Source: a virus. From it: a stretch of 64,000 nucleotides of DNA. Of the stretch, positions 6,570 through 25,970 are shown piece after piece. Made by a program: the position numbers and the translations under genes. Positions within the stretch are counted from its first letter, which is position 1. Each line of letters starts with the position of its first letter. The notes below the pieces were generated by a model, which ran no database searches, had not been told where the DNA came from, and worked only from the letters and a program-made list of their open reading frames with translations. The stretch covers positions 25,012 through 89,011 of the IMG/VR virus record IMGVR_UViG_3300010397_000042; one strand, written 5' to 3'.

Positions 6570-6592
6570 TGATACACTCTAAGGAAACAGAC

Positions 6593-6859: not shown

Positions 6860-6860
6860 C

Positions 6861-12268: not shown

Positions 12269-12312
12269 GCTGCTTCACCCATGGGACTAGATGTCGTGTT
12301 TTTGGAGCATGG

Positions 12313-12687: not shown

Positions 12688-12893
12688 GATTCGAGGGGCA
12701 CCAAGCGAGAATAGGCGCCGAGAATTATTGGGTCGTGCTCACCGCCATTTTTGGCGTCGTACTTCAGGTGATCGTCACCCTCGCAGTGTACAAATCCTTT
12801 GGACACCTTGGCGATCGTGACGATCGAAGCCGTCTCGATGCCGGCGATCGAGAACAACTTCACAACCTTCTGACCCTTCTTGAACTTCTTCAT
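12684..12893 (-). CDS. Hypothetical protein
   Basis: ATGA overlaps at both ends. Confidence 0.6.
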   Translation of the reverse strand: MKKFKKGQKVVKLFSIAGIETASIVTIAKVSKGFVHCEGDDHLKYDAKNGGEHDPIILGAYSRLVPLES

Positions 12894-13987: not shown

Positions 13988-13992
13988 GACGT

Positions 13993-14021
13993 ACTATAGC
14001 ACGTTATTCAGAGTGTGTCAA
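13993..14021 (-). promoter_or_regulatory. Box-containing promoter, leaderless (GT4 gene)
   Basis: TTGACA CACTCTGAA-TAACGTGC TATAGT, ATG 5 nt later; TGA of -35 is the stop codon of the upstream ORF. Confidence 0.8.
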
Positions 14022-14194
14022 GCCGCGGCACGAAGTTTTGAGATTTCGTTCAGTTGCTTGTGGGCTAGGTCGCGGTAACGGCGCGATGCCGTTCCGTTGT
14101 TCTTGCCTTGATGGTAGGAGTGTTTTGATCCGCTGTACCAAAGGTGCAGTCGGATCGCTTCGCGGTATTGTTCGATGTAGTATGTTTCGGTCAT
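14018..14194 (-). CDS. Hypothetical protein (58 aa)
   Basis: ATGA overlap with upstream gene; MTETYYIEQYREAIRLHLWY... Confidence 0.5.
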   Translation of the reverse strand: MTETYYIEQYREAIRLHLWYSGSKHSYHQGKNNGTASRRYRDLAHKQLNEISKLRAAA

Positions 14195-14652
14195 TGTTCT
14201 AATAGGTACTGTAATGCGAGTCTTATCGGTTCGGGCATGTCTGGAAACTGTTCGCTGTTTACGAGCTGTAAGATCTGACGGTCCGGGATGGTTTGCTTGA
14301 TGCGTTTCAGGGTAGATGCGTTTGCTTTCGCGGCGTGCTCAGGCTTGCCGCCGTCTCTGAGCTCGCGTTGTATGGCCTCCCCTAGGATGAGTAGGGGGCG
14401 CACGTTCTTAGCGAGCGGTCTAGGCACGTCTGGGTTGTCCAGAGGGTTGTCTAGACCTTCAGTGTTACAGAATATTTCGAGTTTTTCGAGAGCATCATCG
14501 GGAAAGGATGCATGTCCGCGAATGGCCTTGGTGAATCCGGAAGTAGGAACGTTCGTCTCAGTCATCATGTCTAGGATCTCAGCTAATCCCTTAGCGGATC
14601 CAGCTGCACGGATAACCGGTAACCACGCGGGATGAACCCCAAGCTTTCTCAT
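14191..14652 (-). CDS. Hypothetical protein, possibly HTH-like at N-terminus
   Basis: 153 aa ORF; TTGCTG-17 nt-TATACT just upstream. Confidence 0.6.
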   Translation of the reverse strand: MRKLGVHPAWLPVIRAAGSAKGLAEILDMMTETNVPTSGFTKAIRGHASFPDDALEKLEIFCNTEGLDNPLDNPDVPRPLAKNVRPLLILGEAIQRELRDGGKPEHAAKANASTLKRIKQTIPDRQILQLVNSEQFPDMPEPIRLALQYLLEQ

Positions 14653-14698
14653 TTGGATCGGAGTATAGCAATCGCGATGCCGATCAGCAAAGCGAGGG

Positions 14699-14896
14699 TC
14701 ATAGCAGCGTCTCCTTTGGTTGTTTCCGTCCCCCTCCGTACACCCAAGTGAACGACCAGAAACGGGTTGGGGTTTCGATGGCGATCGAGCGTGTATCGAG
14801 CAATCCTGCTTCGCCTGGCCAGTAGGATAGGAACGTACTACCTAGGCCGATCCAATAGTATGGTGATCCATGTTTCTCTCCTCGTCCCCAGTTCAT
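14699..14896 (-). CDS. Hypothetical protein
   Basis: ATGA-coupled. Confidence 0.5.
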   Translation of the reverse strand: MNWGRGEKHGSPYYWIGLGSTFLSYWPGEAGLLDTRSIAIETPTRFWSFTWVYGGGRKQPKETLL

Positions 14897-15180
14897 GCGA
14901 TGGGCCTCCCTTCATCGTCGAACAACTCAGGGATCGGGAGCATGTCGACTAACTCACCTAATACCGTTTCGATTATTTCTCGGGCGCCTAAGGGCGGGTT
15001 ATGGTGCCACTGGATCGACTCGACCAGACGTCGCCTAGCCTGTTCCGGGTTGAGTCCGTCGAGTAGCGTTCCCTTCCCGTCAACCGAGGCGAGAGTGTAG
15101 TAACAACCCCCTAGTTGATCGTTGGCTTCTACCTCAGCGGTGCCCCACGCGTTGATGGTAACTCGGATACTAAATGCCAT
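14893..15180 (-). CDS. Hypothetical protein
   Basis: TAATG-coupled. Confidence 0.6.
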   Translation of the reverse strand: MAFSIRVTINAWGTAEVEANDQLGGCYYTLASVDGKGTLLDGLNPEQARRRLVESIQWHHNPPLGAREIIETVLGELVDMLPIPELFDDEGRPIA

Positions 15181-15485
15181 TATTGTCCCCTATGTCGTTT
15201 GAACCATTCACAATAGTCGTTTAGTGACATCGAACTGTAATAACTCGGTATGTGCAGCTCGACCGCGATCACGCAATCGTGATAATTCCAGTTGACGGCG
15301 CACATTTCGAGCTCATAGGTGAACGAGCGTTCGAATCCGAGAGGTCCGTCCGGTTTCTCGAATCGGAATACGATCCGGTCCCCTTCGCGTGGCACGTGAT
15401 CGACCAAATAATCACGTACCTTGTAGTTGAGATCCCGGACGTCGAGTTTCGCCTCGTCTAGGTTGGTGTGGAATGTGAGCTTCAT
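15180..15485 (-). CDS. Hypothetical protein
   Basis: TAATG-coupled, AGGAG RBS. Confidence 0.6.
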   Translation of the reverse strand: MKLTFHTNLDEAKLDVRDLNYKVRDYLVDHVPREGDRIVFRFEKPDGPLGFERSFTYELEMCAVNWNYHDCVIAVELHIPSYYSSMSLNDYCEWFKRHRGQ

Positions 15486-15799
15486 TACTTGCGCATCTCC
15501 TTACTCCAGCTACAGGAATCGAGCGCATAGCTCGCGGCCATGCGTGCACGTTGGCAGGCAGCACGGTGCATTGGTCCGCCGTGGAAGATGGCTAGATCGT
15601 CTGCCGATACGCTTACGCATATGCAAACTTCGGTAGAGGTGCTAATCATTTCCACGTAGGCCGCAGGCACTGCAATTAGAACCGCATCACGGATCTCTTG
15701 TGCGGATCTCTCGGCTAGGGCGCGATCGGCGACCGTACACAATCCGTAGATCCGAACTAAACAACCGTAACGATCACGCGTCCAGGAACAGCCTTTCAT
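15485..15799 (-). CDS. Hypothetical protein
   Basis: Coupled on both sides. Confidence 0.55.
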   Translation of the reverse strand: MKGCSWTRDRYGCLVRIYGLCTVADRALAERSAQEIRDAVLIAVPAAYVEMISTSTEVCICVSVSADDLAIFHGGPMHRAACQRARMAASYALDSCSWSKEMRK

Positions 15800-15972
15800 T
15801 CTGCACCTACGATGTGGAAACCTTCGGCAGCAAGTTCGTTTAGGAGTGTGTCACGGTCGCGACGTCATCGGAGCGAATCGCCTGTTTCCGCGTGATAGGC
15901 CTCCCAAACGTGATTTGGAATGGCGCTTGGGGTTCGAAGCTTCTTGACGATAACGGAAGGTTTAGAGCTCAT
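15796..15972 (-). pseudogene. 59-codon gene interrupted by an in-frame TGA
   Basis: ATGA overlaps at both ends in one frame; MSSKPSVIVKK...GDSLR*RRDRDTLLNELAAEGFHIVGAE; TGA at 15865-15867. Confidence 0.6.
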
Positions 15973-16223
15973 TCGGGTAGGTCCGGCGGGAATTCGCATC
16001 TCAGGATGTAATGACGTTTGATGATGAGATCGTGTTCAGTTTGGGCTTCGCTCTGCGATTGGTCGTTCTGTAGACACCCGATGTAGATGCGTTCGGCGTA
16101 GTTGTGGAGTGCTTTATAAGCATCCGAGTAATATGTGTATGGTCCGGCTTTGATCCCACCGTGATGGCCATCGGAGATCACCCAACGGCCAACCCATTCG
16201 AGGATGATGAATCGATCTCTCAC
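15969..16223 (-). CDS. Hypothetical protein (HGGI..GPY family, copy 1)
   Basis: Paralogous to 16468-16728. Confidence 0.65.
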   Translation of the reverse strand: MRDRFIILEWVGRWVISDGHHGGIKAGPYTYYSDAYKALHNYAERIYIGCLQNDQSQSEAQTEHDLIIKRHYILRCEFPPDLPE

Positions 16224-16471
16224 GACTGAGCCTCGACGATGCTGTTCTCGAGAGCATCCGAAACGCGGTGGAGTTGCGTCATACCCTTTTCCAGGATCTG
16301 GGTTAGCTTGGGGTTGAGGGCTGGCTTGACCTCAGTGAGGAGGGTCAAGGCGCGTTCAATGTTGCGGTGGGCTTCTTCCTCAACGTCAAGGTAATCCTTA
16401 TCGTCGGTCGTATCGTTGTCGTCGTATTCGTAGTACGACGGGACTTCCAGCTTGTAATGATCGTAACTCAT
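16220..16471 (-). CDS. Hypothetical protein with acidic N-terminus
   Basis: GAGGA RBS and ATGA overlap at 16471. Confidence 0.6.
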   Translation of the reverse strand: MSYDHYKLEVPSYYEYDDNDTTDDKDYLDVEEEAHRNIERALTLLTEVKPALNPKLTQILEKGMTQLHRVSDALENSIVEAQS

Positions 16472-16728
16472 GGTTCCTCTTCTGGAGTGTAGGTGGGCCA
16501 ATCGAGTCGAATGATGGTGTGGTAGGCTAGGAAGATCCGTTTCTCGCGTGCTGCGAATTCGGGGGTATGTCCGTCTCGGATCCAACCTTCCTCGATCGCA
16601 CGTGCGACGGCTTGTAGGTGATCGTTAGCGGTTCCCCAATGCTGGTATGGTCCTGGATCGATTCCGCCATGGTCGTGATCGGGAAGCACCCAATCACCAT
16701 TCCAGGCCACTATGAGCCAACGAGTCAT
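16468..16728 (-). CDS. Hypothetical protein (HGGI..GPY family, copy 2)
   Basis: Paralogous to 15969-16223. Confidence 0.65.
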   Translation of the reverse strand: MTRWLIVAWNGDWVLPDHDHGGIDPGPYQHWGTANDHLQAVARAIEEGWIRDGHTPEFAAREKRIFLAYHTIIRLDWPTYTPEEEP

Positions 16729-16797
16729 CGGATGAGGCCCAAGGTGAGTGCTAGTTGCAGACCGACCGAGACGAGCCAGCTGAGGTAGGCGAGCACG

Positions 16798-17259
16798 TTA
16801 CGCATTGCTGTCCTCCTCATTCGCGAGATGTACGTACCATGCGTTCAAAATGACCCCGGCAACTTGCTCGATCGCACATACCTGAATTATTTGAATGTGA
16901 TCCGTAATGTGCGAGCCCGTAGGTGTTTTGGATGGCTCGTAATATCCACTAGCGTTGTCTTCCGCATCGGTAAATAGCGGTGTACGGTGCATGTCGAGGC
17001 CCCACTGCCAGAGATCGTGGGAGTCAATGTCCTTCCGCGTTTCGGCGTAGCCTTGTAGATCGTCGATCACTTCTAGATCCCCTTCGTCAATTGCCTCGCA
17101 TGCGGCCTGGCATTCCGAGTAGATCCAATTTTGGGGTAGCGCACCATCATGGGCGTCTAGAACGGCTTTCATGAGCCAATCGGGACGATTGACCGTCAAG
17201 CCCCAGTAGAATTCCCCGTTACCCTTCGAGTGCTTCATCCAGAAATTTGCGAGCTTCAT
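16798..17259 (-). CDS. Acidic helical protein, possibly Ocr-like DNA mimic
   Basis: D/E-rich; loose resemblance to the T7 gp0.3 pattern; preceded by hairpin H1. Confidence 0.4.
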   Translation of the reverse strand: MKLANFWMKHSKGNGEFYWGLTVNRPDWLMKAVLDAHDGALPQNWIYSECQAACEAIDEGDLEVIDDLQGYAETRKDIDSHDLWQWGLDMHRTPLFTDAEDNASGYYEPSKTPTGSHITDHIQIIQVCAIEQVAGVILNAWYVHLANEEDSNA

Positions 17260-17260
17260 G

Positions 17261-17303
17261 ATCACCTAAAGCCCGCATCCCACGTGGGAGCGAGCTAGGT
17301 GAT
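17261..17303 (-). other. Intergenic RNA hairpin H1
   Basis: AUCACCUA-GCUCGC-UCCC ACGU GGGA-U-GCGGGC-UU-UAGGUGAU, then C-AUG. Confidence 0.75.
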
Positions 17304-17305
17304 AC

Positions 17306-17536
17306 TTAGCGCCAGCTTGATTCTTGCGCGCCTTCAATACGACTGAGGTTTACGCAAACCTCCCAATCGTCACTAGGTTCGCGTGCCAACAACAGATCAC
17401 CGATCCCGTATCGGTTCGGTAACTCACGCACTACGAACCACTCTCCTTCGAATCCGTCCGGACCGAAGCGACCCGATCCGTTGTAGCGAGACAGGACAGT
17501 GACCTTCAAGCCCTTTTCGTATCGTTCCGTCTTCAT
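17306..17536 (-). CDS. Hypothetical protein (SH3-like), leaderless
   Basis: ATG 6 nt after the -10 box. Confidence 0.65.
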   Translation of the reverse strand: MKTERYEKGLKVTVLSRYNGSGRFGPDGFEGEWFVVRELPNRYGIGDLLLAREPSDDWEVCVNLSRIEGAQESSWR

Positions 17537-17542
17537 ACCTAG

Positions 17543-17571
17543 ACTATAGCTCGGACCTCAGAGTCTGTCAA
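17543..17571 (-). promoter_or_regulatory. Box-containing promoter, leaderless
   Basis: TTGACA GACTCTGAG-GTCCGAGC TATAGT; the TGA is the RadC-like gene stop. Confidence 0.8.
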
Positions 17572-18038
17572 CCGAGACACGAACGAAATTTCATTTTTTC
17601 TGCAGTGACCACCAAGTGGTCAAGCATCGGGAGGCCCACGAGGTTAGCTGCAATGCCGATCGCGGCGGTGGTTTCGAGATCCTGGCGTGATGGTGTGGGA
17701 TCGTTGTTGGGGTGGTTGTGGATGAGAACGAACGCATCCGCGTGACCGATGAGAACAGCACGCAAGATATCCGGCACTTTCAGACTCGCCGAATGCGCTC
17801 CACCTTGGGAGAGCGTTGTAATGTTCGTGATGTCACCTCCCGAGTTGATGAGGATCGCGATCATGTATTCGATCGGCATGTGGCCAATGAGCTTGTGTCC
17901 GATGAGTGCAGCCTGAGCCGGATCGGAACACCTATCGATAGGGAGCGAAATGGTCTTCTCTTTGACCATTCGCAGGCCGACTTGCTTGATCTTGTACGAT
18001 TTCGTGCCAGCCAAAGATCCAACGTATTGGGAGTTCAT
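17568..18038 (-). CDS. RadC-like JAB/MPN domain protein
   Basis: E...HNHPNNDPTPSRQD...LDHLVV JAMM motif. Confidence 0.9.
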   Translation of the reverse strand: MNSQYVGSLAGTKSYKIKQVGLRMVKEKTISLPIDRCSDPAQAALIGHKLIGHMPIEYMIAILINSGGDITNITTLSQGGAHSASLKVPDILRAVLIGHADAFVLIHNHPNNDPTPSRQDLETTAAIGIAANLVGLPMLDHLVVTAEKMKFRSCLG

Positions 18039-18136
18039 GTGTGTCTGATACCTCGTGGAAAACGCCAGCGTGTGGCCATTGTTCGATTAGAACGAATCGT
18101 GATTGCGGTGGGAAATTGTAGTGGTCGTGATTGAGC

Positions 18137-18445
18137 CTAAAGTGTGAGTGTGACATGTTGGGTGGAAACTACCTTCCCAGATCTAGAGTATTCGCGCACG
18201 ATGGCTGATATCTGAGTGTCGCCACGTTCGCGGGCAACGGTTAGACGATGTCTGCCGTCGGTCAAGATCGGCGCTTTGCCGGGCCACACTTCGACTACGA
18301 TCGGGCGCATGGCTTTCCCGGATGCTCGTTCCCCTCGCACGATATCCAGGCTTTCTGGACGCATTCCCGAGTAGTCGATAGTTACCTCACGAATAGATGT
18401 CACCCGTGATTGTGGTGTGCTCGCGCTCGATCCTCTGCCGCCCAT
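18137..18445 (-). CDS. ParB/Srx-like N-terminal domain protein
   Basis: PIVV...ILTDGRHRL..ARERG...I; starts MGGRG. Confidence 0.75.
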   Translation of the reverse strand: MGGRGSSASTPQSRVTSIREVTIDYSGMRPESLDIVRGERASGKAMRPIVVEVWPGKAPILTDGRHRLTVARERGDTQISAIVREYSRSGKVVSTQHVTLTL

Positions 18446-19070
18446 GATGTAACCTCTCAACGTGTAGTGATGGGTAATACGTAACGTGTGGTGCTAGCCA
18501 TTCGGGTAGCTTGCCCCCAATGCATACGATGCGTGTGGGGTGGAGTGCTGCGCGCATTGCCTCGAAACCCTCGCGATACTCGACAGGGTTGCGGCTCGCG
18601 CCATAGGCGGAAATCGCGATCGTGGAGTCTTGTGGGAGCCCTAGAAAGCAGTATTTCCAGCTTTCAGGATCCGCCCACGAGACCGAAGGGATAACGTGGG
18701 CTCCACGTACCTGTAATGCACGCGCGAGCCAACGTGAGCGGAATACCTGCCATTGCTTCGCAGCTAGAGGCCATTCCGGATAGATCGAAAAATCTGGACT
18801 GCAGATAATACGATCGTTGATCTTATATCGATCGGGAGAGCGCCAAAGTGGCTCGAATCGATAATCATCTGTAAAACAGTGGATGCCCTCGAGAGGAGTA
18901 GCGCGCTTTCGGTCGGGCCAAGCATGCCAACGATTTGGGAGTGTATCATCGTACCTCAAAACGTAGGGGATACCTAATAGATTGTCGCTCGCGTAGTATT
19001 CGCGTAGGTTTAGCGGATCGAAGCGCGCGGTACGTTGGTCAGTATTGATTCTGCGAAGCGGATTAGTCAT
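18387..19070 (-). CDS. DUF4417 domain protein
   Basis: IHCFTDDYRFE.LW..P, SPDFSIY, RSRW, VIPSVSW, CF.GLP..S.IAIS. Confidence 0.85.
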   Translation of the reverse strand: MTNPLRRINTDQRTARFDPLNLREYYASDNLLGIPYVLRYDDTLPNRWHAWPDRKRATPLEGIHCFTDDYRFEPLWRSPDRYKINDRIICSPDFSIYPEWPLAAKQWQVFRSRWLARALQVRGAHVIPSVSWADPESWKYCFLGLPQDSTIAISAYGASRNPVEYREGFEAMRAALHPTRIVCIGGKLPEWLAPHVTYYPSLHVERLHHGRQRIEREHTTITGDIYS

Positions 19071-19269
19071 CGGGTTGCCCCGTTCGGTAGCAGCCATCGA
19101 GTGTGCAACCCTCGTGACGTGCTTCCAACGCGTGCTCTTCGCAGGCGTACCATTCGGGGTAGTGACGTTGGGAGATCTCAGCTACGGCAGGCTTACCGCA
19201 CGGCACGTAGGTGACGTGGGAACCGCAGTCTTCGTAGGGATCGGTTAGGTTGCGTTGACATGTGTTCAT
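19063..19269 (-). CDS. Cys/His-rich hypothetical protein
   Basis: ATGA-coupled; CG...ACEEH. Confidence 0.55.
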   Translation of the reverse strand: MNTCQRNLTDPYEDCGSHVTYVPCGKPAVAEISQRHYPEWYACEEHALEARHEGCTLDGCYRTGQPDD

Positions 19270-19568
19270 GATTCCTCTATCAAATCAGCCCAATCGATTC
19301 CTTCGTGGATCAGTTGGGCCGTTTGGGGTTCAAGAATAGTGATCGCATCGAGTAGCAGACCGATAGGACCGCGCGAGTCGACCTTGTGACCACTATATAA
19401 CCATACGATCTTGAGAAGAGTTTGCACCGCGTCATACCGAATCGATGCATTAGTTATTAGTTCGGTCTCGGTCGCCTTCACACGCGCTGCTAACTCGCGT
19501 ACCGCTTTCCTACGATCCACGTCACTAAAGGCGTGGACCATGCATAAAACTTCGTCCGATAGACTCAT
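19266..19568 (-). CDS. Hypothetical protein
   Basis: ATGA-coupled. Confidence 0.55.
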   Translation of the reverse strand: MSLSDEVLCMVHAFSDVDRRKAVRELAARVKATETELITNASIRYDAVQTLLKIVWLYSGHKVDSRGPIGLLLDAITILEPQTAQLIHEGIDWADLIEES

Positions 19569-20362
19569 GATGCCGCCTTTACTTGGTTGATACGTTCGGC
19601 GATCCAGCGCGTTGGTTCCTTTACGATCGTGTCCGTGAGGTAGACCTCAGGGACGAGCACGTCGGTTGGGAGCATTTCGGTAACCTTGCGTAGGTAGTTG
19701 CGATATTGCTCGGTACCCATCGCGTGATATGAACGAGGCCATGCGCCATAGAAGCCGTATTTCTCAGCGTGGCCGTAGCAGACGTTGCGGGAGAATGACG
19801 GATGTGCGAGCGCGAATGCGGCCGACGAGATGTCCAAGGGTTTGGACTCGACGCGGATAACCTGAAACAGATCCCCGTCATCTCCGCCATTGGTGCAGCA
19901 CATGAGGAACAGATCAACGCCTACTTGGTTGCGCTGGAGCTGTTCCAGGAATCCGAGGATCGTGATCCCGCGCTTCAGCATGACGGATGCGTCGATGCCA
20001 GCTGAGCACGTCATGTCCACGTAGACCGAGACGTGACGTGTGACTTGCTCGGTTCGCTTGCGCTGGCGCATGCACATGGGATTACCCGCGAGGTATGCAG
20101 GCACGCATACGCGCGAGCCGGCGACCGAGGGCATGAACGCGAGCTTCAGAGTCTCGTCACATTCGATGTCCAAGTTTTCGAGGGCTTTCATTGCTTTCGA
20201 GGCGATTTCGATGTCACCCGAAAGGGCGCGCTTACGTGCCTCAGGACCTCGCACATTGAGATCCCACTGAGTGCTAGAACAGCCCTCGATTTGGTCCCAC
20301 GTGCTGCTTTTCTTGCTGGCTTCGAGAAATTCGGCGACGGAATCGAAACGGAGGATCGTCAT
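19565..20362 (-). CDS. vWA-like protein (partner of MoxR-type AAA+ ATPase)
   Basis: G-x-R-V-x-V-P-A-Y-L-A-G-x-P motif, strand VSVYVDMTCS (degenerate MIDAS), AHPSFSR; adjacent to AAA gene. Confidence 0.65.
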   Translation of the reverse strand: MTILRFDSVAEFLEASKKSSTWDQIEGCSSTQWDLNVRGPEARKRALSGDIEIASKAMKALENLDIECDETLKLAFMPSVAGSRVCVPAYLAGNPMCMRQRKRTEQVTRHVSVYVDMTCSAGIDASVMLKRGITILGFLEQLQRNQVGVDLFLMCCTNGGDDGDLFQVIRVESKPLDISSAAFALAHPSFSRNVCYGHAEKYGFYGAWPRSYHAMGTEQYRNYLRKVTEMLPTDVLVPEVYLTDTIVKEPTRWIAERINQVKAAS

Positions 20363-20365
20363 GGT

Positions 20366-20602
20366 TTAGGTGTAGCTCGATTCTGAGAGTATGTCAAACG
20401 GTTTTTTGAGAGCGCGCGCCATATCTCGCGCTTCCCACCGTGTGCCGTAGTACCAGAACGATGGGGCCTCCATTTGCGACGATTGCCACTGCACGCACCA
20501 TGCATGCTTGCCGCGTTCGATGTAGCTGCGGTGCGTACGGCTATCCGTGAGAAGGATCCCCCAATGGGATCGTGGATTGATCTTGCGAACAATAGCTTTC
20601 AT
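20366..20602 (-). CDS. Hypothetical Trp-rich protein
   Basis: ATG directly follows hairpin H2. Confidence 0.55.
   Translation of the reverse strand: MKAIVRKINPRSHWGILLTDSRTHRSYIERGKHAWCVQWQSSQMEAPSFWYYGTRWEARDMARALKKPFDILSESSYT
20369..20397 (-). promoter_or_regulatory. Box-containing promoter, leaderless (vWA gene)
   Basis: TTGACA TACTCTCAG-AATCGAGC TACACC; ATG 6 nt later. Confidence 0.7.
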
Positions 20603-20603
20603 G

Positions 20604-20647
20604 ATCGCCGAAAGCCCGCGATCCGTTAGGATGCAAGCTAGGGCGAT
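20604..20647 (-). other. Intergenic RNA hairpin H2
   Basis: AUCGCC-CUAGCUUGC-AUCC UAAC GGAU-C-GCGGGCUUUC-GGCGAU, then C-AUG. Confidence 0.72.
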
Positions 20648-20664
20648 AATATCCGAGTGTGTCG

Positions 20665-21726
20665 TTATGCTGCGCTCTTCACGCTATCCCATTGTTCGGG
20701 AGTCATGGCGCTGGCCATGGTCATCTCCTCAACCGTGCTTTGATCCAGACCTTGGGACAGCAGGTCCGCGCCATCGAACGATGCACGTGGTGTAACGAGC
20801 ACGCGCAACCCCTTGGACATAACAGCCTTGCGGATCGCCTGCACACGCTTAGTCCACGTCATGTTGGGCGCAACAGCCAATTCCAGATCCAGATCGTACG
20901 GCCACGCGACGCGAACGAACCGATCCAGAAACGCGCCGTCCAGCTTGTTTCGGCCCACGTACTCATGGGTAGCGCCATGCCCCCATGTGTTGGCCGCAGC
21001 GATGATCACGCAATCGGGGTGACGCGTAACCATACCATCGGGGAAGGCTGCTACGCCGTTTGCCAAGAGGGCATTGAACGCAACGAGCGCGGTGGGATCG
21101 GATCCGTCGACCTCATCCCACAAGAACACCCCACCATGTTCGTATGCCTCACGCAACATGGTGCGCTTATAGTTCCCGTTCGCGTCAATGAAGCCTAGGA
21201 GAGCGTAGGGATCCGAGACTGCACCCGTGTAGTAGAATTTCAAGCCGAGGGCTTTCGCCACGTTCTCAGCAGCGGTGGTCTTGCCCGATCCTGCAGGACC
21301 TGCAACCCATGCGTTACGCTTGCGCGTGTTGCAAGCGGCGAGCAAGCGGGGAAAATGCTTGTGCTGTAGGCCTACGTCGATCGTGCTCAGATCCGGCCGA
21401 ACCACGTTGATCGTGACGGCCTTGATCGAGCTCATGGCTTGCTGGATTGACTCCAGATCAAGCCGTTCCTCGATCATGGGGTAGAGTACTTCTGCGAGGC
21501 TTTCGAGCGCGTTGGAGTGAGCCTTGGGCGTTTCGGTAGATGAGGTATTGACCTGCATGTTCTCGGACGTTTCACCGCCCCATTTCCCCCTGCGGGTCCA
21601 CGAAATCATATCGCCCGCGTGAATGCGATCCGAGCACAAGTCGCACGGACCATCAAACTTTGCAGGAAACGCGCGCTTGACTGATTTGCCGTTCTTTTCT
21701 TCCCAGCACTTGGCATGAAATGGCAT
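20665..21726 (-). CDS. MoxR/CbbQ/CobS-type AAA+ ATPase with N-terminal Zn finger
   Basis: GPAGSGKT, FLWDEVD, IAAANTWG, YVGRNKLDGAFLDRF, TPRAS; AGGAGAG RBS. Confidence 0.9.
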   Translation of the reverse strand: MPFHAKCWEEKNGKSVKRAFPAKFDGPCDLCSDRIHAGDMISWTRRGKWGGETSENMQVNTSSTETPKAHSNALESLAEVLYPMIEERLDLESIQQAMSSIKAVTINVVRPDLSTIDVGLQHKHFPRLLAACNTRKRNAWVAGPAGSGKTTAAENVAKALGLKFYYTGAVSDPYALLGFIDANGNYKRTMLREAYEHGGVFLWDEVDGSDPTALVAFNALLANGVAAFPDGMVTRHPDCVIIAAANTWGHGATHEYVGRNKLDGAFLDRFVRVAWPYDLDLELAVAPNMTWTKRVQAIRKAVMSKGLRVLVTPRASFDGADLLSQGLDQSTVEEMTMASAMTPEQWDSVKSAA

Positions 21727-21768
21727 GGTCTCTCTCCTGTTTTACGTCTGTTCCGACGCTCGTGATTA

Positions 21769-21797
21769 TGTGTAGCGCGAATCTAAGAGTCTGTCAA
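21769..21797 (-). promoter_or_regulatory. Box-containing promoter (leadered, AAA gene)
   Basis: TTGACA GACTCTTAG-ATTCGCGC TACACA. Confidence 0.7.
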
Positions 21798-21988
21798 TCA
21801 ATTATCTATCGATCGAGGTTACACGTGGGTGCGCGTGTTTCCCTACATTTATTTCACTTGAATCGAACAACACCAACCTGGTTGCCAGCGCCAGTGTGTC
21901 CCGCATACTGGACACGTCCAATTCGGTCCTTTGCGCTTGGTCGTGCAGACATCACACCAACAATCAATCCCGTGTTTGGTTTTACTCA

Positions 21989-22213
21989 TCATGTGCGTTC
22001 CTTTCGGATCACTAGCGAGCCATCGAGTGTCGCGTAGGCGACTCCACGGCAGATCCCGGTCACGTATGGCACGTCACATTTGGCGCCTTGCCAATACACG
22101 TTGCCGTCGATTTGACCTCGAACGTCATCCGTTGAGATCATGCGAATCGCTTGGATCGCTAGATCCATATTGGATAGTTCCGCAAACGACCAAATCAGCG
22201 TGCCTTTACTCAT
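21989..22213 (-). CDS. Hypothetical protein
   Basis: ATG directly follows hairpin H3. Confidence 0.55.
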   Translation of the reverse strand: MSKGTLIWSFAELSNMDLAIQAIRMISTDDVRGQIDGNVYWQGAKCDVPYVTGICRGVAYATLDGSLVIRKERT

Positions 22214-22214
22214 G

Positions 22215-22258
22215 ACGCCCTAAGCCTCGATCCAACGTGGGACCGAGGCTTAGGGCAT
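22215..22258 (-). other. Intergenic RNA hairpin H3
   Basis: AUGCCCUAAGCCUCG-GUCC CACGUU GGAU-CGAGGCUUAGGGCGU, then C-AUG; 13-bp perfect stem. Confidence 0.8.
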
Positions 22259-22491
22259 GAATCTCTGAGTCTATCACTCTAGGATGTAGCGAGCTCGACG
22301 TGTGAGCGGTGGACGAGCGATCATGCCGCGGCTCAGCTCAGCGCGAGCACGTGCGATGATGTTGTAAACGGTCGTGAGATCAACGAGGATTTGCTTACTT
22401 GGGTGCATGTGGGCCTCCTTCAGATGAAATGGTGTAGGACGATCGCTGCGAAACCAACGTAGGCGAGTAGGGTTCTCATCGGGGTGTTGGG

Positions 22492-22520
22492 AGTATGGTG
22501 CTGTTCTCAGAGTCTGTCAA
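22492..22520 (-). promoter_or_regulatory. Box-containing promoter
   Basis: TTGACA GACTCTGAG-AACAGCAC CATACT. Confidence 0.72.
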
Positions 22521-22678
22521 TCTGTTTTTATCCGCCAGCGCGACGATCGCGATTGGGTTGTGCATGCGAGCGCGATACCAGCGGATGAAATGCTCATGAC
22601 ACCGCCTGCATTGGAGCACGGTCGGTGTCACCTGATGACCCGTTGCCGGATGCGCAGGTCCGCCGCAGAAAAAACAGC

Positions 22679-22888
22679 TCATGATACCTCCACATTGAAC
22701 CATGCCGCATCGGTGCTCATGACGCGCGAGATGATGCGGGCGTACTGACTGCGATCCATCTCACGGCCGATCGTGAGTGAGAACATCTCGCACACACGAC
22801 GGGCCGTTGCGATACGAGACTTCGTGGTCTCGATCGTAAACTTGTGTGCACCTTGTGTCGTGAGGATCGTGACGTTCCGGGTAGCCAT
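22679..22888 (-). CDS. Hypothetical protein, leaderless
   Basis: ATG 6 nt after -10. Confidence 0.6.
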   Translation of the reverse strand: MATRNVTILTTQGAHKFTIETTKSRIATARRVCEMFSLTIGREMDRSQYARIISRVMSTDAAWFNVEVS

Positions 22889-22894
22889 GACCAG

Positions 22895-22923
22895 AGTATG
22901 GCCGCTACCTCAGAGTCTGTCAA
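22895..22923 (-). promoter_or_regulatory. Box-containing promoter, leaderless
   Basis: TTGACA GACTCTGAG-GTAGCGGC CATACT. Confidence 0.78.
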
Positions 22924-23265
22924 GACTTCACTTGAGAATAGTTCGTACCTGGCGGTACGTATGCCCAAAAATACGTGCCATCCCGGCGTTTGATCTGGAT
23001 CTTGTGCCATCCCAATTGTATTAGTTCGCGTGGTGTTATCTTGATTTTCCTAGGGTTAGATTGTTGCGATTCGTTTCAATTTGAAGCGCGCCCAATTTCG
23101 TGAGTCGTAAGACCACGTGGCCTTGATTCGACGCAACCGAGATCCACCGCTGTTTGATTGCTTCCCAATAGAGAGCGAGCTGGTCAGGCGAGTCAATTCG
23201 AAGCTCAGTGATCACACGTTCGAGCACTGCTATCTGTTGCCGTAGATCGGCTATCGTCTGGCGAC

Positions 23266-23571
23266 TCATAGCTCGTCCACCAAAGAGCGGAGATCTTCCT
23301 TGCTCATTTGCTCCAGGATGCGCCGTAGCGTCCGTTTGACACCTGCAACGTACGTAGACCTCCCGTTGTGCATCGATGCCGTGCGGCGCCACGTGCGATC
23401 GTTCGTCTGGTCGGGATCGCGCTCGAGACGAGCTTCCGGGTAGTCCCGGTACCAGCGTTTGAGGTACGGGCCGTATAGACTCTCGTGGTAGTCGAATGCT
23501 GGATGAGTCGTGACCATACGTCCGATGATTTGGAAACCATGCTTGACGAGAAAGTATGTAATGTCTGACAT
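23266..23571 (-). CDS. Hypothetical protein, leaderless (first leftward gene)
   Basis: ATG 7 nt after -10. Confidence 0.6.
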   Translation of the reverse strand: MSDITYFLVKHGFQIIGRMVTTHPAFDYHESLYGPYLKRWYRDYPEARLERDPDQTNDRTWRRTASMHNGRSTYVAGVKRTLRRILEQMSKEDLRSLVDEL

Positions 23572-23578
23572 GACCTAT

Positions 23579-23607
23579 AGTGTAGCAGAAAGCTTGTAGT
23601 ATGTCAA
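23579..23607 (-). promoter_or_regulatory. Promoter with degenerate box, leaderless
   Basis: TTGACA TACTACAAG-CTTTCTGC TACACT. Confidence 0.75.
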
Positions 23608-23609
23608 GA

Positions 23610-23910
23610 GACGGTAGGATACGGGGGTAGTCGAGAGGGGTATCCTCGGGAACTTCAATGATTCCAATGACTCTATACCCTAGAAACCCTAAAACACCCT
23701 AGATTTGAAAAGTCAAAAGATTATTTACGTCACCTAATAGGTTTTGCTATAGACCTATATGCGGAGAGGGTATAGACGGTATCTACAGATTCGTGAATGA
23801 TTTCATAGGCAATTTGACCAAAATCGGAAAACCATAGGGTGTCGAAGGCTTACCGCGCTTTTTTGAGTGATTTCGAGGGCTACCAGAAATCGACACAACT
23901 ATCCCAATCG
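23610..23910. other. Non-coding divergent centre, candidate replication origin or genome end
   Basis: AT-richer; ACCCTA x3 (23677, 23686, 23696); inverted repeat TCTATACCCT/AGGGTATAGA. Confidence 0.4.
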
Positions 23911-23914
23911 GTAT

Positions 23915-23943
23915 TGGACACACTCTAAGATCCGATCCATACT
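23915..23943 (+). promoter_or_regulatory. Box-containing promoter, leaderless
   Basis: TGGACA CACTCTAAG-ATCCGATC CATACT; ATG 6 nt later. Confidence 0.68.
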
Positions 23944-23949
23944 ATCAGC

Positions 23950-24096
23950 ATGTACACGCTCAACAATCAAAACACGTTCGGCAGCTTCTCTGATGCAATC
24001 GAGGCCTCGCGCGACTTGCGCGACGCTGGTTATCGCGGGGTCATTGTGATCCACGACGAGAATGGCGAAGTCTGTTACTACCACGCCGCGCTGTAA
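23950..24096 (+). CDS. Small hypothetical protein (48 aa), leaderless
   Basis: MYTLNNQNTFGSFSDAIEASRDLRDAGYRGVIVIHDENGEVCYYHAAL; not in ORF track. Confidence 0.6.
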   Translation: MYTLNNQNTFGSFSDAIEASRDLRDAGYRGVIVIHDENGEVCYYHAAL

Positions 24097-24289
24097 GGCT
24101 CGACGACATAACCCGCAGGGGATAACCGCTAACGCGGTGTCTCTTGCGGGGGCAGGGGGAGCCGCTAAGCACTGCGGGGCGATGAATGCGTAGTGTGTTA
24201 GCTAATAACACCTACATCTCTCACTTATTATCAATCATTAGCGCTATTAGACATCGACACACTCTAAGAAATCGAGTCATGCTCTAGTT

Positions 24290-24487
24290 ATGTACACGGT
24301 CATCATCATCCACGCACCGATCCTCGGTAACTACAGCGCTAGCAACGTGCTCTGCTACGTCCGTTCGCGCAAGGCAGCGGACAAGATGGTGCGCGAGCTT
24401 AGCGCTAAGAACGCGGGCAACGGTTACGTCGCAGGCTACATGTTTTGCGAGGGAAAGCTCGCAAGTACGATTTCTCAGATTTCTTGA
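24290..24487 (+). CDS. Small hypothetical protein, leaderless
   Basis: TCGACA CACTCTAAG...CATGCT (24254-24283), then ATG 6 nt later. Confidence 0.6.
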   Translation: MYTVIIIHAPILGNYSASNVLCYVRSRKAADKMVRELSAKNAGNGYVAGYMFCEGKLASTISQIS

Positions 24488-24516
24488 TTGACATACTCTG
24501 AGGCCCACGCTATAGT
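24488..24516 (+). promoter_or_regulatory. Box-containing promoter, leaderless
   Basis: TTGACA TACTCTGAG-GCCCACGC TATAGT; ATG 6 nt later. Confidence 0.8.
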
Positions 24517-24522
24517 CTACTC

Positions 24523-24681
24523 ATGTTCGACGCCGCAAAAAAGCACGATGCCCGACGCGCCGAAGTCTACGCGCGTTTGCTCGCCGCTACGGCCGCTCTT
24601 GAGGCCTCGATCGCAACGTCCGTCAAGTACGTCAGCACCACGGCCGACACCACGGCCGCCACTGTTCGCCCCTCGCGCTGA
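24523..24681 (+). CDS. Small hypothetical protein (52 aa), leaderless
   Basis: MFDAAKKHDARRAEVYARLLAATAALEAS...; not in ORF track. Confidence 0.55.
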   Translation: MFDAAKKHDARRAEVYARLLAATAALEASIATSVKYVSTTADTTAATVRPSR

Positions 24682-24707
24682 TACACTCTAAGAAAGGCGA
24701 TAATCCC

Positions 24708-25043
24708 ATGGTCACCCTATCGTTCATTGTACTCGCGCTGTTCCCCATCGTGCTCCCGTCGGTACTTGCCCTCGTTGGGCTCGTCCTGCTCGTGTGCGTC
24801 CCCACGCGCTCGTTTGAGCGTGAGGAGACTGCTCTGTACGTTGCCGAACAAGCGGCACTCTGGTCGGCCGTACGGGACGCGTACAATGCGGATGCGTTAG
24901 AGCTTGGGCTCGCTGTCGTGGAAGCGCAGCACACACCTGTACCTACAGAGCCTACCATGGCGGATGCGCTCTTCGCTGGGATGGCGGTTTACAGTAGGAT
25001 TAGAACTTCTAATGTCACTGTAATCGATGAGTCGAGGGCCTGA
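24708..25043 (+). CDS. Hypothetical membrane protein
   Basis: Hydrophobic N-terminal 30 aa. Confidence 0.55.
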   Translation: MVTLSFIVLALFPIVLPSVLALVGLVLLVCVPTRSFEREETALYVAEQAALWSAVRDAYNADALELGLAVVEAQHTPVPTEPTMADALFAGMAVYSRIRTSNVTVIDESRA

Positions 25044-25421
25044 GTATCCCGTTCGGGATGTAGTACACTCGATAGGGATAGCATTAGCGCGATAATCGCT
25101 ATCCCAACTCGGATATTACGCGATGCGTTATCCGCGCGATATTACTCATGATTTCGCACTGGGGGCCGATACCCCCTCCCCACCCCCCTCGTAGGAACGC
25201 AGGACTGGTCCCCCTACAACAAGAAACGATACTAGCATTAGGTGTAGACTACACCTTATTCCTACGATAATGGCACCCGTCGTGGTCTTTGCACTTCCAT
25301 GTGCCCTCGCCGAAGATCTGTCTCGGGTATGAGTTATTGTCACATAACTCACACGGCCTCAGGTATCCACGCATCCACAAGCAACCCCCACCGAATCCAA
25401 TCAAAGCAAAGATAATAGCTA

Positions 25422-25931: not shown

Positions 25932-25970
25932 TTCGGAATGGTAATAATCGAAGAGTGTGTCGTCAAGAGC

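What the first reader, a model, noticed from the sequence alone, without database searches (positions are those of the whole stretch)
17259..22258. Family of three related long hairpins each ending exactly at an AUG
Seen in sequence (minus strand): H1 17261-17303, H2 20604-20647 and H3 22215-22258 are about 44-nt stems with shared sequence (CCUAGC..UCC-loop-GGAU..G(C/A)GG(G)CUU..GG(U/C)G(A)UC-AUG) and compensatory differences. They have no U-tract, so they are not intrinsic terminators, and each is followed by one base and the start codon, leaving no free RBS. Established analogy: T7 early RNase III sites. Inference: they are processing sites that convert internal cistrons into near-leaderless mRNAs, matching the promoter design, or they form an undescribed translational-control RNA motif.
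Basis: partly seen in the sequence, partly recalled or inferred. Interest (0 to 1): 0.75.

Follow-up and report, generated by a model that had tools for sequence, protein, structure and literature searches.

The report
Three RNA hairpins masking gene starts
An uncultured soil phage carries three related RNA hairpins that each bury the ribosome-landing region of an internal early gene and end one base before its start codon, most likely as cut-to-activate or lock-type control points, a new variant of a familiar kind of phage gene-boundary signal.

Summary
H1 (17261-17303), H2 (20604-20647) and H3 (22215-22258) are minus-strand hairpins of 43-44 nt, each followed by C and ATG.

- **Rank:** of 168 ORF starts on the 89-kb contig, they have the three most structured upstream regions.
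- **Copies:** a covariance model finds only these three, and it prefers the sense strand.
- **Pairing:** it is kept through compensatory changes, with five G-U pairs on the sense strand only, so the structure works as RNA.
- **Not terminators:** they have no U-tract, unlike the phage's real terminators.
- **Ribosome site:** the only Shine-Dalgarno-like purines, (A/C)GG five bases before ATG, lie inside the 3' arm, so the ribosome site is masked.
- **Origin:** H2 and H3 sit in decayed copies of the phage's own leaderless-promoter module.
- **Insertion:** the H2 gene is inserted between two genes that are adjacent in relatives.

My best reading (confidence about 0.4) is that these are processing or unmasking sites. 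This resembles T7 early RNase III sites and adhE-type RBS unmasking, but is not homologous to them. No close relative, no RNA data and no host were available, so the mechanism is inferred.

Unchecked earlier notes of this scan describe similar hairpin-to-start cassettes in other soil phages. I class this as a new variant of a known kind, of moderate interest.

The parts
17261..17303 (-). H1 RNA hairpin: 7-bp lower stem, UU bulge on the 3' side, 7-bp middle stem, 1-nt bulge, 4-bp apical stem, tetraloop. The 3' arm is the best anti-SD match of the three.
   Evidence: Anti-SD duplex energy is -12.9 kcal/mol, rank 3 of 168 starts.
16798..17260 (-). Linker C (17260), ATG (17259-17257) and the 153-aa ORF P0001 that H1 precedes.
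   Evidence: The coding score of 0.30 is the best of six frames. The near-length search found no homologue besides itself.
17306..17536 (-). Upstream 76-aa cistron. It is leaderless from the box promoter at 17571-17543, and its TAA stop lies 2 nt before H1.
20604..20647 (-). H2 RNA hairpin: 6-bp lower stem, 2x3 internal loop, 7-bp middle stem, 1-nt bulge, 4-bp apical stem, tetraloop.
20366..20603 (-). Linker C, ATG (20602-20600) and the 78-aa ORF P0002. Its 3' end contains the next box promoter (20397).
   Evidence: The coding score of 0.08 is the best of six frames. It belongs to a small-protein family (26 hits at E<=1e-3, best 2e-10), and its N-terminus aligns within 2 residues of P0126.
20651..20665 (-). 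Relic of the promoter -35 plus box, 5' of H2 (4 mismatches of 13 specified positions). It overlaps the TAA stop of the CobS-like gene.
20665..21726 (-). Upstream cistron: a CobS-like AAA ATPase whose stop lies 17 nt before H2.
22215..22258 (-). H3 RNA hairpin: 19 contiguous base pairs and a 6-nt loop. An alternative extended fold also pairs the box remnant with the UG of the AUG and the next three bases.
21989..22214 (-). Linker C, ATG (22213-22211) and the 74-aa ORF P0003.
   Evidence: The coding score of 0.19 is the best of six frames. Two homologues (67% and 60% identity) share the N-terminus, and one begins with the same first four residues.
22263..22277 (-). Relic of the promoter -35 plus box, 5' of H3 (3 mismatches of 13), at the same offset from the hairpin as in H2. 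It overlaps the tandem TGA-TAG stops of the 44-aa ORF.
22274..22408 (-). Upstream 44-aa cistron with a free AGGAGG SD. It is preceded by a leaderless 19-codon mini-ORF (22420-22479) from the promoter at 22520-22492. Its stop lies 15 nt before H3.

Best explanation
**What they are.** H1-H3 are three paralogous structured elements of the sense-strand early mRNA. Each folds the 43-44 nt directly in front of an internal cistron into a stable hairpin. The 3' arm of that hairpin is the cistron's own ribosome-binding region: (A/C)GG, five bases, then AUG. On the intact polycistronic RNA the start is therefore masked.

**Proposed mechanism (inferred).** The hairpins are endonucleolytic processing sites, with two candidate enzymes.
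- Host RNase III could cut in or at the 3'-side bulge of the stem, as at the T7 early sites and in adhE-type RBS unmasking.
- Alternatively, an RNase E-type enzyme could cut at the stem-U|C-AUG junction.

Either cut would leave the upper hairpin as a protective 3' end on the upstream message. It would also release the downstream cistron with a free, very short leader: about 8-10 nt carrying the mini-SD, or 1 nt. This suits a phage whose promoter-proximal genes are almost all leaderless.

**What is shown.** The structure, its strand specificity and its paralogy are shown. So are its exact apposition to real start codons, the absence of terminator features, the masking of the only SD-like bases, and the origin of H2 and H3 inside decayed copies of the phage's promoter module.

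**What is inferred.** The cleavage itself, the enzyme and the effect on translation are all inferred.
For: **Structure and uniqueness:**

**RNA level.** The sense fold beats the antisense fold in 3 of 3 (-27.0/-23.1, -22.9/-18.7, -36.3/-32.0). All 5 G-U pairs are on the sense strand.

**Masked RBS.**
- Other genes of the same arm start leaderless from box promoters, by ATGA overlap, or with a free SD such as AGGAGG at 22408 or AAGGAG at 27431. The three hairpin genes have none of these.
- The 3' arms pair with a generic anti-SD tail at -12.9, -7.2 and -7.7 kcal/mol, against a random 20-mer mean of -4.5 (sd 2.6).

**Real genes with these starts:**

**Not terminators.** None is listed by the scan. 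The phage's real terminators carry runs of four U or more directly after the stem (folds near 33200 and 50140 printed).

**T7-like architecture.** Five T7 early intercistronic hairpins folded here show an upper stem of 9-13 bp. In four of them it sits on an internal loop and a lower stem of 4-8 bp, as in H1 and H2.

**Literature precedent.** Passages of PMC5371410 state that RNase III cleavage can unmask an occluded RBS (adhE, lambda cIII) and can leave stabilising hairpins.

**Junction motif.** It fits the mycobacterial RNase E motif RN|CNU in 3 of 3 (sequence; motif from a passage of PMC10641625).

**Slot.** H2 and H3 occupy the place of the -10 in relic promoter modules. The hairpin module therefore sits where this phage otherwise restarts expression.
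Against: - There is no RNA evidence at all. The only run holding the phage is the source DNA run, and its contigs show no variants.
- No homologous hairpin was found anywhere. That covers 25 IMG/VR loci, 56 metagenome loci, three pattern scans of IMG/VR and Rfam. Conservation across phages is therefore untested.
- Three P0002-family genes in other viral contigs use a free SD (2) or an ATGA overlap (1), with unremarkable upstream folds.
- The stems have 17-19 bp. As I recall, that is at the short end for RNase III.
- The T7-site model does not recognise them.
- The contig encodes no RNase III or dsRBD protein of its own, and the host is unknown.
- The SD-likeness of H2 and H3 is within the ordinary range (ranks 38 and 31 of 168).
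- The RN|CNU fit is weak evidence. AUG itself fixes two of the five positions, and the copies are paralogues.
- Three sequences give little statistical power for covariation.
Confidence: 0.4

Rival explanations
1. The hairpin is a translational lock that works without cleavage. It simply occludes the RBS, so the downstream accessory protein is made at a very low level. It may also be made only when the stem is opened, either by a ribosome terminating on the upstream cistron (translational coupling) or by a phage or host RNA-binding factor that recognises the conserved apical GGA/UCC pairs and bulges.
For: - The RBS is masked, and the stabilities of -23 to -36 kcal/mol should by themselves block 30S binding.
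- In H1 the upstream stop lies 2 nt before the stem, so a terminating ribosome would melt the lower stem and free the strong SD-like 3' arm.
- Sequence is conserved in the apical stem and at the bulge positions across the three copies.
- An extended H3 fold also pairs part of the AUG.
Against: - In H2 and H3 the upstream stops lie 17 and 15 nt before the stem. From general knowledge of ribosome footprints, that is too far for a terminating ribosome to open it. Coupling therefore cannot be the common mechanism.
- No candidate binding protein was identified.
- H3 has no bulge or internal loop, so any protein-recognition feature based on these is not shared.
Confidence: 0.25
2. They are boundary modules of PeSL-like cassettes. 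In this reading the hairpins are the stem-loop half of degenerate promoter/stem-loop cassettes. They attenuate read-through transcription or protect the upstream message's 3' end, and they serve as homology patches for swapping small accessory genes. The contact with the ATG is inherited from the promoter module, which also ends ...TC-ATG, and is not itself functional.
For: - H2 and H3 carry a relic -35 plus box at the same offset, with the hairpin where the -10 would be.
- True promoters in this phage also end in (G/C)TC-ATG.
- H2, P0002 and the next promoter are interposed between the CobS-like and DUF7192 genes. In two relatives (L004, L005) those genes are adjacent or overlapping.
- The three downstream genes are rare accessory genes.
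- PeSLs are described as sigma70-like promoters plus stem-loops, often overlapping the -10. They end in an SD and a start codon, are associated with ORFans, and act as terminators and recombination sites (passages of PMC2839356; abstract of PMC4122927).
Against: - No functional promoter remains. The -10 slot reads CCTAGC or CCTAAG, without the conserved A2 and T6, and neither site is listed by the promoter scan.
- H1 has no box at all (12 mismatches).
- There is no U-tract.
- An efficient terminator would silence the downstream genes, which have no promoter of their own.
- Compensatory changes and sense-strand G-U pairs indicate selection on RNA pairing, not only on DNA homology.
- No close relatives exist in which to see cassette exchange.
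Confidence: 0.2
3. They act at the DNA level, as palindromic binding sites for a dimeric regulator or as cruciform or hairpin DNA signals of the operator, origin or hairpin-promoter type.
For: They are inverted repeats. H1's centre is a perfect 10-bp palindrome. Phages do carry dispersed palindromic operators, and ESAS inverted repeats next to starts were judged to be DNA sites (passages of PMC3203893).
Against: - The arm sequences differ between copies while staying complementary. That is the opposite of what a protein operator requires.
- The bulges are asymmetric.
- All five non-Watson-Crick pairs are G-U on the sense strand.
- Covariance-model scores are strongly strand-specific.
- With DNA parameters the folds are weak, at -11 to -19 kcal/mol.
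Confidence: 0.05
4. The start codon is helix-capped. The blunt end of a stable helix one base before the AUG stands in for an mRNA 5' end, or for the SD:anti-SD helix. Ribosomes of a leaderless-proficient host then initiate internally without an SD and without cleavage.
For: - The phage's promoter-proximal genes are leaderless. In one search, 11 of the 13 box promoters listed have ATG or GTG 5-7 nt after the -10.
- All three stems end with weak A-U and U-A or U-G pairs next to the AUG.
- The lower stem of H1 is a literal SD:anti-SD-like duplex.
- Unchecked notes of this scan report hairpin-to-start designs without an RBS in other soil phages and in an archaeal virus.
Against: No precedent is known to me. 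From general knowledge, a helix 1 nt from the P-site codon would clash with the E-site mRNA path unless it frays.
Confidence: 0.1

Closest known systems
Phage T7 early intercistronic RNase III sites. Site names and cleavage are recalled from Dunn and Studier; the RefSeq record read does not annotate them.
   Same: Both are families of related hairpins of about 45-50 nt between cistrons of an early polycistronic RNA. Both have an upper stem of about 10-13 bp and no U-tract. In most T7 sites there is also a 3'-side internal loop and a short lower stem.
   Different: - They are not homologous: the models do not cross-detect.
- The four T7 hairpins folded leave 13-22 free nt with a strong SD before the AUG. 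Here 1 nt is left and the SD-like bases are inside the stem.
- Cleavage is proven for T7 and untested here.
RNase III-dependent unmasking of an occluded RBS (E. coli adhE, lambda cIII), as stated in passages of PMC5371410.
   Same: The ribosome-binding site is buried in a stable secondary structure, so translation would need the structure to be removed.
   Different: Those are single 5'-UTR structures of individual genes. This is a repeated module at internal cistrons, and dependence on RNase III is not shown here.
PeSL (promoter-early stem-loop) cassettes of T4-type phages (PMC2839356 passages; PMC4122927 abstract).
   Same: Both are repeated intergenic modules that combine a promoter-type sequence with a stem-loop lying over the -10 region. 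Both end at the start codon of small, rare accessory genes. One copy here (H2) marks an insertion relative to related phages.
   Different: Here the promoter part is decayed (H2, H3) or absent (H1). There is no free SD. The stem-loop abuts the ATG and shows RNA-type compensatory changes. There are only three copies. Terminator activity and recombination are untested.
Start-Associated Sequences and Extended SAS of Cluster K mycobacteriophages (PMC3203893 passages).
   Same: Both are repeats locked within a few bases of start codons (mostly ATG) of non-structural genes. Both lie in one orientation, include inverted repeats, and have unknown function with a suspected role in translation initiation.
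   Different: SAS is a 13-bp asymmetric box containing AGGAG, 3-7 bp from the start. The ESAS arms do not support RNA pairing, and the authors favour DNA-binding proteins. Here there is no SAS-like box, and the arms covary as RNA.

Membership tests
T7-type RNase III processing site | Intercistronic hairpin of about 45-60 nt with an upper stem of about 10 bp, an internal loop or bulge, and a short lower stem | tested here: met
   H1 has 7 + 7 + 4 bp with UU and U bulges. H2 has 6 + 7 + 4 bp with a 2x3 loop. H3 has 19 bp and, as in the T7 hairpin before gene 1.3, almost no internal loop.
T7-type RNase III processing site | Sequence-plus-structure similarity to the T7 sites | tested here: not met
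   A model of five T7 hairpins gives no match at H1-H3 at E<=10. The model of H1-H3 scores T7 hairpins at 7.8 and 5.2 bits, E>1.
T7-type RNase III processing site | A free leader with an SD between the hairpin and the next AUG | tested here: not met
   The four T7 hairpins folded leave 13, 17, 22 and 22 nt. Here 1 nt is left in 3 of 3.
T7-type RNase III processing site | Cleavage by RNase III in vivo or in vitro | not testable with these tools
   No RNA run holds the phage. The contig encodes no RNase III or dsRBD protein. The host is unknown.
RBS-occluding hairpin (adhE / lambda cIII type) | SD-like bases and the region 5' of the AUG are base-paired in a stable structure | tested here: met
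   (A/C)GG at -8..-6 lies in the lower stem in 3 of 3. Fold energies are -23 to -36 kcal/mol.
Intrinsic (Rho-independent) terminator | G+C-rich stem followed directly by a U-tract | tested here: not met
   The scan requiring at least 5 T in 8 lists none of the three. The phage's own terminators near 33200 and 50140 have runs of four U or more directly after the stem.
PeSL cassette | A functional sigma70-type promoter within the module | tested here: not met
   The relic -35 plus box has 4 (H2) and 3 (H3) mismatches of 13. The -10 slot lacks the conserved A2 and T6. Neither site is listed by the promoter scan. H1 has 12 mismatches.
PeSL cassette | Stem-loop between the -35 and -10 or over the -10, with the start codon at the 3' end of the module | tested here: met
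   This holds for H2 and H3. It does not apply to H1.
PeSL cassette | Association with ORFans and with indels between related phages | tested here: inconclusive
   The H2 gene is interposed between genes that are adjacent in L004 and L005. P0001 has no homologue. No close relatives exist for testing H1 and H3.
SAS/ESAS of Cluster K mycobacteriophages | A 13-bp asymmetric box with AGGAG 3-7 bp before the start, and inverted repeats whose differences do not support RNA pairing | tested here: not met
   No such box is present. The arms here keep pairing through double changes and G-U pairs (definition from PMC3203893 passages).
Any Rfam 15 family | A match at the gathering score | tested here: not met
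   There are 0 matches at gathering thresholds in the window. At E<=5, only miRNA-precursor chance matches overlap H3, with 25.9 bits against a gathering score of 74.
Mycobacterial RNase E cleavage motif RN|CNU | Purine at -2, C at +1 and U at +3 in a single-stranded stretch | tested here: inconclusive
   The motif fits 3 of 3 junctions (AU|CAU, AU|CAU, GU|CAU; motif from PMC10641625). However, the AUG fixes two positions, the -2 and -1 bases are paired in the stem, and the host phylum is unknown.

The most novel reading that the evidence does not exclude
The hairpin-C-AUG module is a punctuation mark for internal leaderless initiation. The foot of a stable helix, directly or after a precise cut at the stem-U|C junction, presents the AUG to ribosomes as if it were at an mRNA 5' end. 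A phage of a leaderless-proficient host could then restart translation inside an operon without an SD and without a promoter. That would be a bacterial-virus counterpart of mitochondrial tRNA punctuation. It may be shared with the hairpin-to-start designs noted elsewhere in this scan, which are unchecked.
Probability: 0.15. Interest if true: 0.8.

Novelty: new variant of a known kind. Interest (0 to 1): 0.5.

Why it matters
If the hairpins are cut or opened to activate translation, this phage uses two interchangeable modules to start a gene. One is a promoter that begins the RNA at the AUG. The other is an RNA hairpin that ends at the AUG. That would give a compact, testable system for asking how internal cistrons are translated in hosts that rely on leaderless or SD-poor initiation.

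The conversion of promoter modules into hairpin modules (H2, H3) also shows how phage accessory-gene cassettes can swap their expression signals. If the hairpins are only attenuators or stabilisers, the finding is an ordinary member of the large class of phage intercistronic stem-loops.

Tried and rejected
**Searches for relatives**
- Megablast of 8 kb against GenBank phages found nothing.
- tblastn of the CobS-like protein against phages gave at best 46.6% identity. tblastn of P0003 found nothing.
- The CobS-like protein was used as a query against IMG/VR (25 loci, at most 51% identity), metagenome contigs (56 loci) and GTDB genomes (2 distant loci).
- The protein database gave at best 57-59% full-length identity for the CobS-like protein.
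- The covariance model R1 found no member in any of these loci.
- Three DNA-pattern scans of IMG/VR were run: the H1/H2 3' arm (0 hits); a whole-hairpin pattern (1 hit, which reading and model score show to be chance); and the promoter box (31 contigs with one match each, about chance level).
- P0003-family and P0002-family scans of IMG/VR gave 0 and 3 loci. The 3 loci have conventional starts.

**RNA evidence.** No RNA holder was listed. Laying the source run's contigs showed no variants at the hairpins.

**Readings considered and rejected**
- Terminators (no U-tract).
- A palindromic DNA operator (the arms covary and the bulges are asymmetric).
- N4-type hairpin promoters and single-strand promoters (no -10 or -35 in the arms; my own reading).
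- attC-like or MITE-like elements (three copies, no target duplication, no recombination core seen).
- An RNA thermometer (far too stable).
- A functional promoter in H2 or H3 (the -10 slot is not a -10).
- In-frame stop codons in the 5' arms as a read-through device (in frame in 2 of 3, which is chance level).
- The 13-base identity with T7 as evidence of homology (the models do not support it).

**Function of the downstream proteins.** Pfam and PHROGs gave no hit for the three downstream proteins. The protein-atlas look-ups of P0001 and P0003 were uninformative.

**Papers.** PMC4681348 passages held nothing on processing to leaderless mRNAs. I did not open any supplementary files. The PeSL and SAS alignment figures and supplements could refine the comparison.

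Full report
**Setting**

The window is bases 25012-89011 of an 89-kb linear IMG/VR virus contig, with CheckV completeness of 60%. The three hairpins lie in a leftward (minus-strand) arm of early, accessory and replication genes. These include a CobS-like AAA ATPase, DUF7192, DUF4417, RadC and a glycosyltransferase. I found no close relative of this phage.
- Megablast against 50,697 GenBank phage records gave nothing.
- The best full-length relatives of the CobS-like protein among 5.8 billion proteins are 57-59% identical.
- The only public run that holds the DNA is a soil-metagenome DNA run.

**The observation**

Read on the minus strand, H1 spans 17303-17261, H2 spans 20647-20604 and H3 spans 22258-22215. 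Each is followed by one C and ATG, and all three junctions read TCATGA.
- H1 has a 7-bp lower stem, a UU bulge on the 3' side, a 7-bp middle stem, a 1-nt bulge, a 4-bp apical stem and a tetraloop.
- H2 has the same plan, with a 6-bp lower stem and a 2x3 internal loop.
- H3 has 19 uninterrupted pairs and a 6-nt loop.

Several tests show this is more than chance.
- The energies are -27.0, -22.9 and -36.3 kcal/mol for the bare hairpins. In 66-67-nt context the z-scores against shuffles are -4.6, -2.9 and -9.1.
- Among 168 greedily chosen ORF starts on the whole contig, the 50 nt upstream of these three starts are the three most stable. They score -36.9, -27.5 and -23.4, against a mean of -10.1 (sd 4.9).
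- A covariance model built from the three finds them and nothing else in the window. They score 64.9, 64.3 and 50.4 bits. Their reverse complements score 23.6, 19.0 and 14.9. The best unrelated hit scores 15.7 bits at E 0.15. The model finds nothing in the first 25 kb of the contig.
- That test is circular, so I also built a model from H1+H2 only. It retrieves H3 as the best non-training hit in 128 kb of both strands, at 21.5 bits and a rough E of 0.008. The next unrelated hit scores 15.9 bits. H3 is therefore a real but more distant member.

**RNA rather than DNA**

- When each hairpin's own fold is lined up helix by helix (pairs printed), I count 18 pair positions. Seven change on both sides while staying paired, two change on one side through G-U, and one cell (H2, top of the lower stem) is unpaired.
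- On the alignment forced by the model, 89.8% of cells pair, against 32-49% when partners are slid by 1-3 columns. Four pairs change on both sides, a value that 25 of 500 shuffles also reach. With three sequences this is suggestive, not statistically strong.
- All five non-Watson-Crick pairs are G-U on the sense strand. The sense RNA folds about 4 kcal/mol better than the antisense in all three.
- An operator for a dimeric protein would conserve arm sequence rather than complementarity, so I regard a DNA-level role as unlikely.

**Not terminators**

The terminator scan of 12000-26000 lists seven sites, none of them at H1-H3. The 3' arms hold only 2-3 U, and these lie inside the structure. The phage's evident terminators, near 33200 and 50140 and visible in the folds, have runs of four U or more directly after the stem.

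**Gene starts**

On the leftward arm, genes start in one of three ways.
- Leaderless from a conserved promoter module: -35, an ACTCTnAG box, GC, a -10, then 5-7 nt to ATG. Of the 13 promoters listed, 11 fit this.
- By ATGA stop/start overlap.
- With a free SD, for example AGGAGG before 22408 and AAGGAG before 27431.

The three hairpin genes have none of these. The downstream ORFs are real genes.
- Each is the best of its six frames by a codon-usage score: 0.30, 0.08 and 0.19. The training genes score 0.23 +/- 0.09, and rejected overlapping ORFs score -0.12 +/- 0.20.
- P0003 has two homologues (67% and 60% identity). They share the N-terminus, and one begins with the same first four residues.
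- P0002 belongs to a family of small proteins: 26 hits at E<=1e-3 among 1.84 billion representatives, the best at 2e-10. Its N-terminus aligns within two residues of the best hit.
- P0001 has no homologue in the near-length search.

**A masked ribosome site**

All three 3' arms read (A/C)GG, five bases, then ATG.
- H2 and H3 give -7.2 and -7.7, ranks 38 and 31.
- Random 20-mers of the contig average -4.5 (sd 2.6), and 2.9% reach -10.

H1 therefore hides a strong SD-like sequence whose partner arm imitates the anti-SD. H2 and H3 hide only weak ones. A related contig (L071) shows what looks like a free SD of the same AGGTGA type three bases before the ATG that follows its CobS gene. That SD type may therefore be in use in this phage group.

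The upstream stop codons lie 2 nt (H1), 17 nt (H2) and 15 nt (H3) before the stems. A terminating ribosome could open only H1.

**Origin**

H2 and H3, but not H1, carry a decayed copy of the promoter's -35 plus box at the same offset. It starts 23 nt 5' of the CCTAR in the 5' arm. H2 has 4 mismatches and H3 has 3, out of 13 specified positions. The per-position chance is about 8e-4 and 1e-4 by shuffles. H1 has 12 mismatches.

The hairpin thus lies where the -10 would be, and that slot (CCTAGC, CCTAAG) is no -10. True promoters also end in ...TC-ATG.

In two relatives (L004, L005) the CobS-like gene is followed by the DUF7192 homologue, after a 1-nt gap or with an ATGA overlap (BLASTP E 4e-16 and 7e-19). 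In this phage, H2, the P0002 gene and a fresh promoter are interposed between them.

Three P0002-family genes in other IMG/VR contigs start with a free SD (2) or an ATGA overlap (1). Their upstream folds are unremarkable, with z-scores of -0.2, +0.4 and +1.5. The hairpin therefore belongs to this phage's way of expressing genes, not to the gene family.

**Comparison with T7**

I fetched T7 bases 400-7000. The record does not annotate RNase III sites, so their names are recalled. I folded five early intercistronic regions.
- They show upper stems of 9-13 bp. In four of them the upper stem sits on an internal loop and a 4-8-bp lower stem, at -21 to -26 kcal/mol, which is the plan of H1 and H2.
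- The four folded leave 13, 17, 22 and 22 free nucleotides with a strong SD before the AUG.
- The families are not homologous. My model scores the T7 hairpins at 7.8 and 5.2 bits, E>1. A model of the five T7 hairpins gives no hit at H1-H3.
- Rfam has nothing at gathering scores. At E<=5 it gives only chance miRNA-precursor matches.
- The contig encodes no RNase III or dsRBD domain.

**Mechanism**

What is shown is a strand-specific RNA structure that masks the ribosome-binding region of three real internal cistrons. My preferred explanation (0.4) is endonucleolytic unmasking.
- An RNase III cut at the 3'-side bulge or loop (H1, H2), or a double cut (H3), would leave the upper hairpin on the upstream message. 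It would free a leader of 8-10 nt carrying the mini-SD. This follows the principle stated for adhE and lambda cIII, and for stabilising hairpins, in PMC5371410 (passages).
- A variant is a cut at the foot of the stem. The junctions AU|CAU, AU|CAU and GU|CAU fit the RN|CNU motif reported for mycobacterial RNase E. That paper also reports enrichment of cleavage in intergenic regions and cites stem-loops as directing RNase E cuts (PMC10641625 passages). Such a cut would give a 1-nt leader, truly near-leaderless. However, the host is unknown and the fit is weak evidence.

The rivals are these.
- A lock without cleavage, through coupling or a trans-acting factor (0.25).
- A PeSL-like attenuator or recombination module whose contact with the ATG is inherited (0.2).
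- A helix-capped start codon for internal leaderless-type initiation (0.1).
- A DNA-level site (0.05).

The PeSL-like origin is compatible with any of the RNA-level functions.

**Known kinds and novelty**

The closest described systems are the following.
- T7 early RNase III sites: an analogy of architecture and position, with membership not met.
- adhE/cIII-type RBS unmasking: an analogy of principle.
- PeSL cassettes (PMC2839356 passages; PMC4122927 abstract): the module layout and the link to rare genes fit, but there is no functional promoter.
- SAS/ESAS of Cluster K mycobacteriophages (PMC3203893 passages): both are locked to starts, but ESAS arms do not pair as RNA.

Earlier notes of this scan, which are unchecked AI notes, describe hairpins fused to start codons without an RBS in another soil phage. 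They also describe promoter-hairpin cassettes in a further one, and a helix-plus-stop punctuation in an archaeal virus. I did not test those.

I class the finding as a new variant of a known kind. The new feature is the fusion of a covarying RNA hairpin to the start codon with one base between them, in the slot of a leaderless promoter. Interest is moderate (0.5). The anatomy is clean and the hypothesis is directly testable. Against that, there are three copies in one uncultured, 60%-complete contig, with no relatives, no host and no RNA data.

Noticed in passing
window 22266-22278 (minus) and L120 1030-1042 (T7 record 1429-1441): An identical 13-base string occurs once in each sequence. It consists of tandem TGA-TAG stops of the upstream gene followed by ACTCA. 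In both it lies immediately 5' of an intercistronic hairpin: in T7, in the lower stem of the hairpin between genes 0.4 and 0.5. The covariance models do not support homology, so this is probably chance.
   Followed up: partly
window 20366-20665: The relic box, H2, the 78-aa P0002 gene and a fresh box promoter (20397) are interposed between the CobS-like and DUF7192 genes. In relatives L004 and L005 those two genes are adjacent or overlapping.
   Followed up: yes
window 22420-22520 (minus): The box promoter at 22520-22492 is followed by a near-leaderless 19-codon hydrophobic mini-ORF (22479-22420). A perfect AGGAGG SD and a 44-aa ORF follow, and all of this lies upstream of H3. The arrangement resembles a leader peptide, and its function is unknown.
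   Followed up: no
window 21989-22213 and 20366-20602: P0003 and P0002 are members of small, rare, uncharacterised protein families with strongly conserved cores. P0003 has 2 homologues. P0002 has 26 distant hits, some of which appear as repeats inside very large proteins. Pfam, PHROGs and the protein atlas assign no function.
   Followed up: partly
L029 1803-2145 (contig bases 14702-15044, outside the window): The phage carries a one-piece tmRNA gene with the tag peptide ANDNAIPELQAAA. It might help to identify the host.
   Followed up: no
window 24110-24165: This is the second most stable 56-nt window on the plus strand in my scan (-34.3 kcal/mol). It has no U-tract and folds on both strands. 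It lies among the tiny divergently transcribed genes and may be a bidirectional transcript end.
   Followed up: no
window 22250-22258 (minus): The 5' arm of H3 begins with ATG-CCC-TAA, a two-codon mini-ORF in frame with the upstream 44-aa ORF. H1 has a sense-sense-stop triplet series at the same place, but H2 does not. I judge this to be chance.
   Followed up: partly
L071 330-356: In a related metagenome contig, the CobS gene's stop is followed by what looks like a free AGGTGA-type SD three bases before the next ATG. H1 hides the same SD type in its 3' arm.
   Followed up: partly
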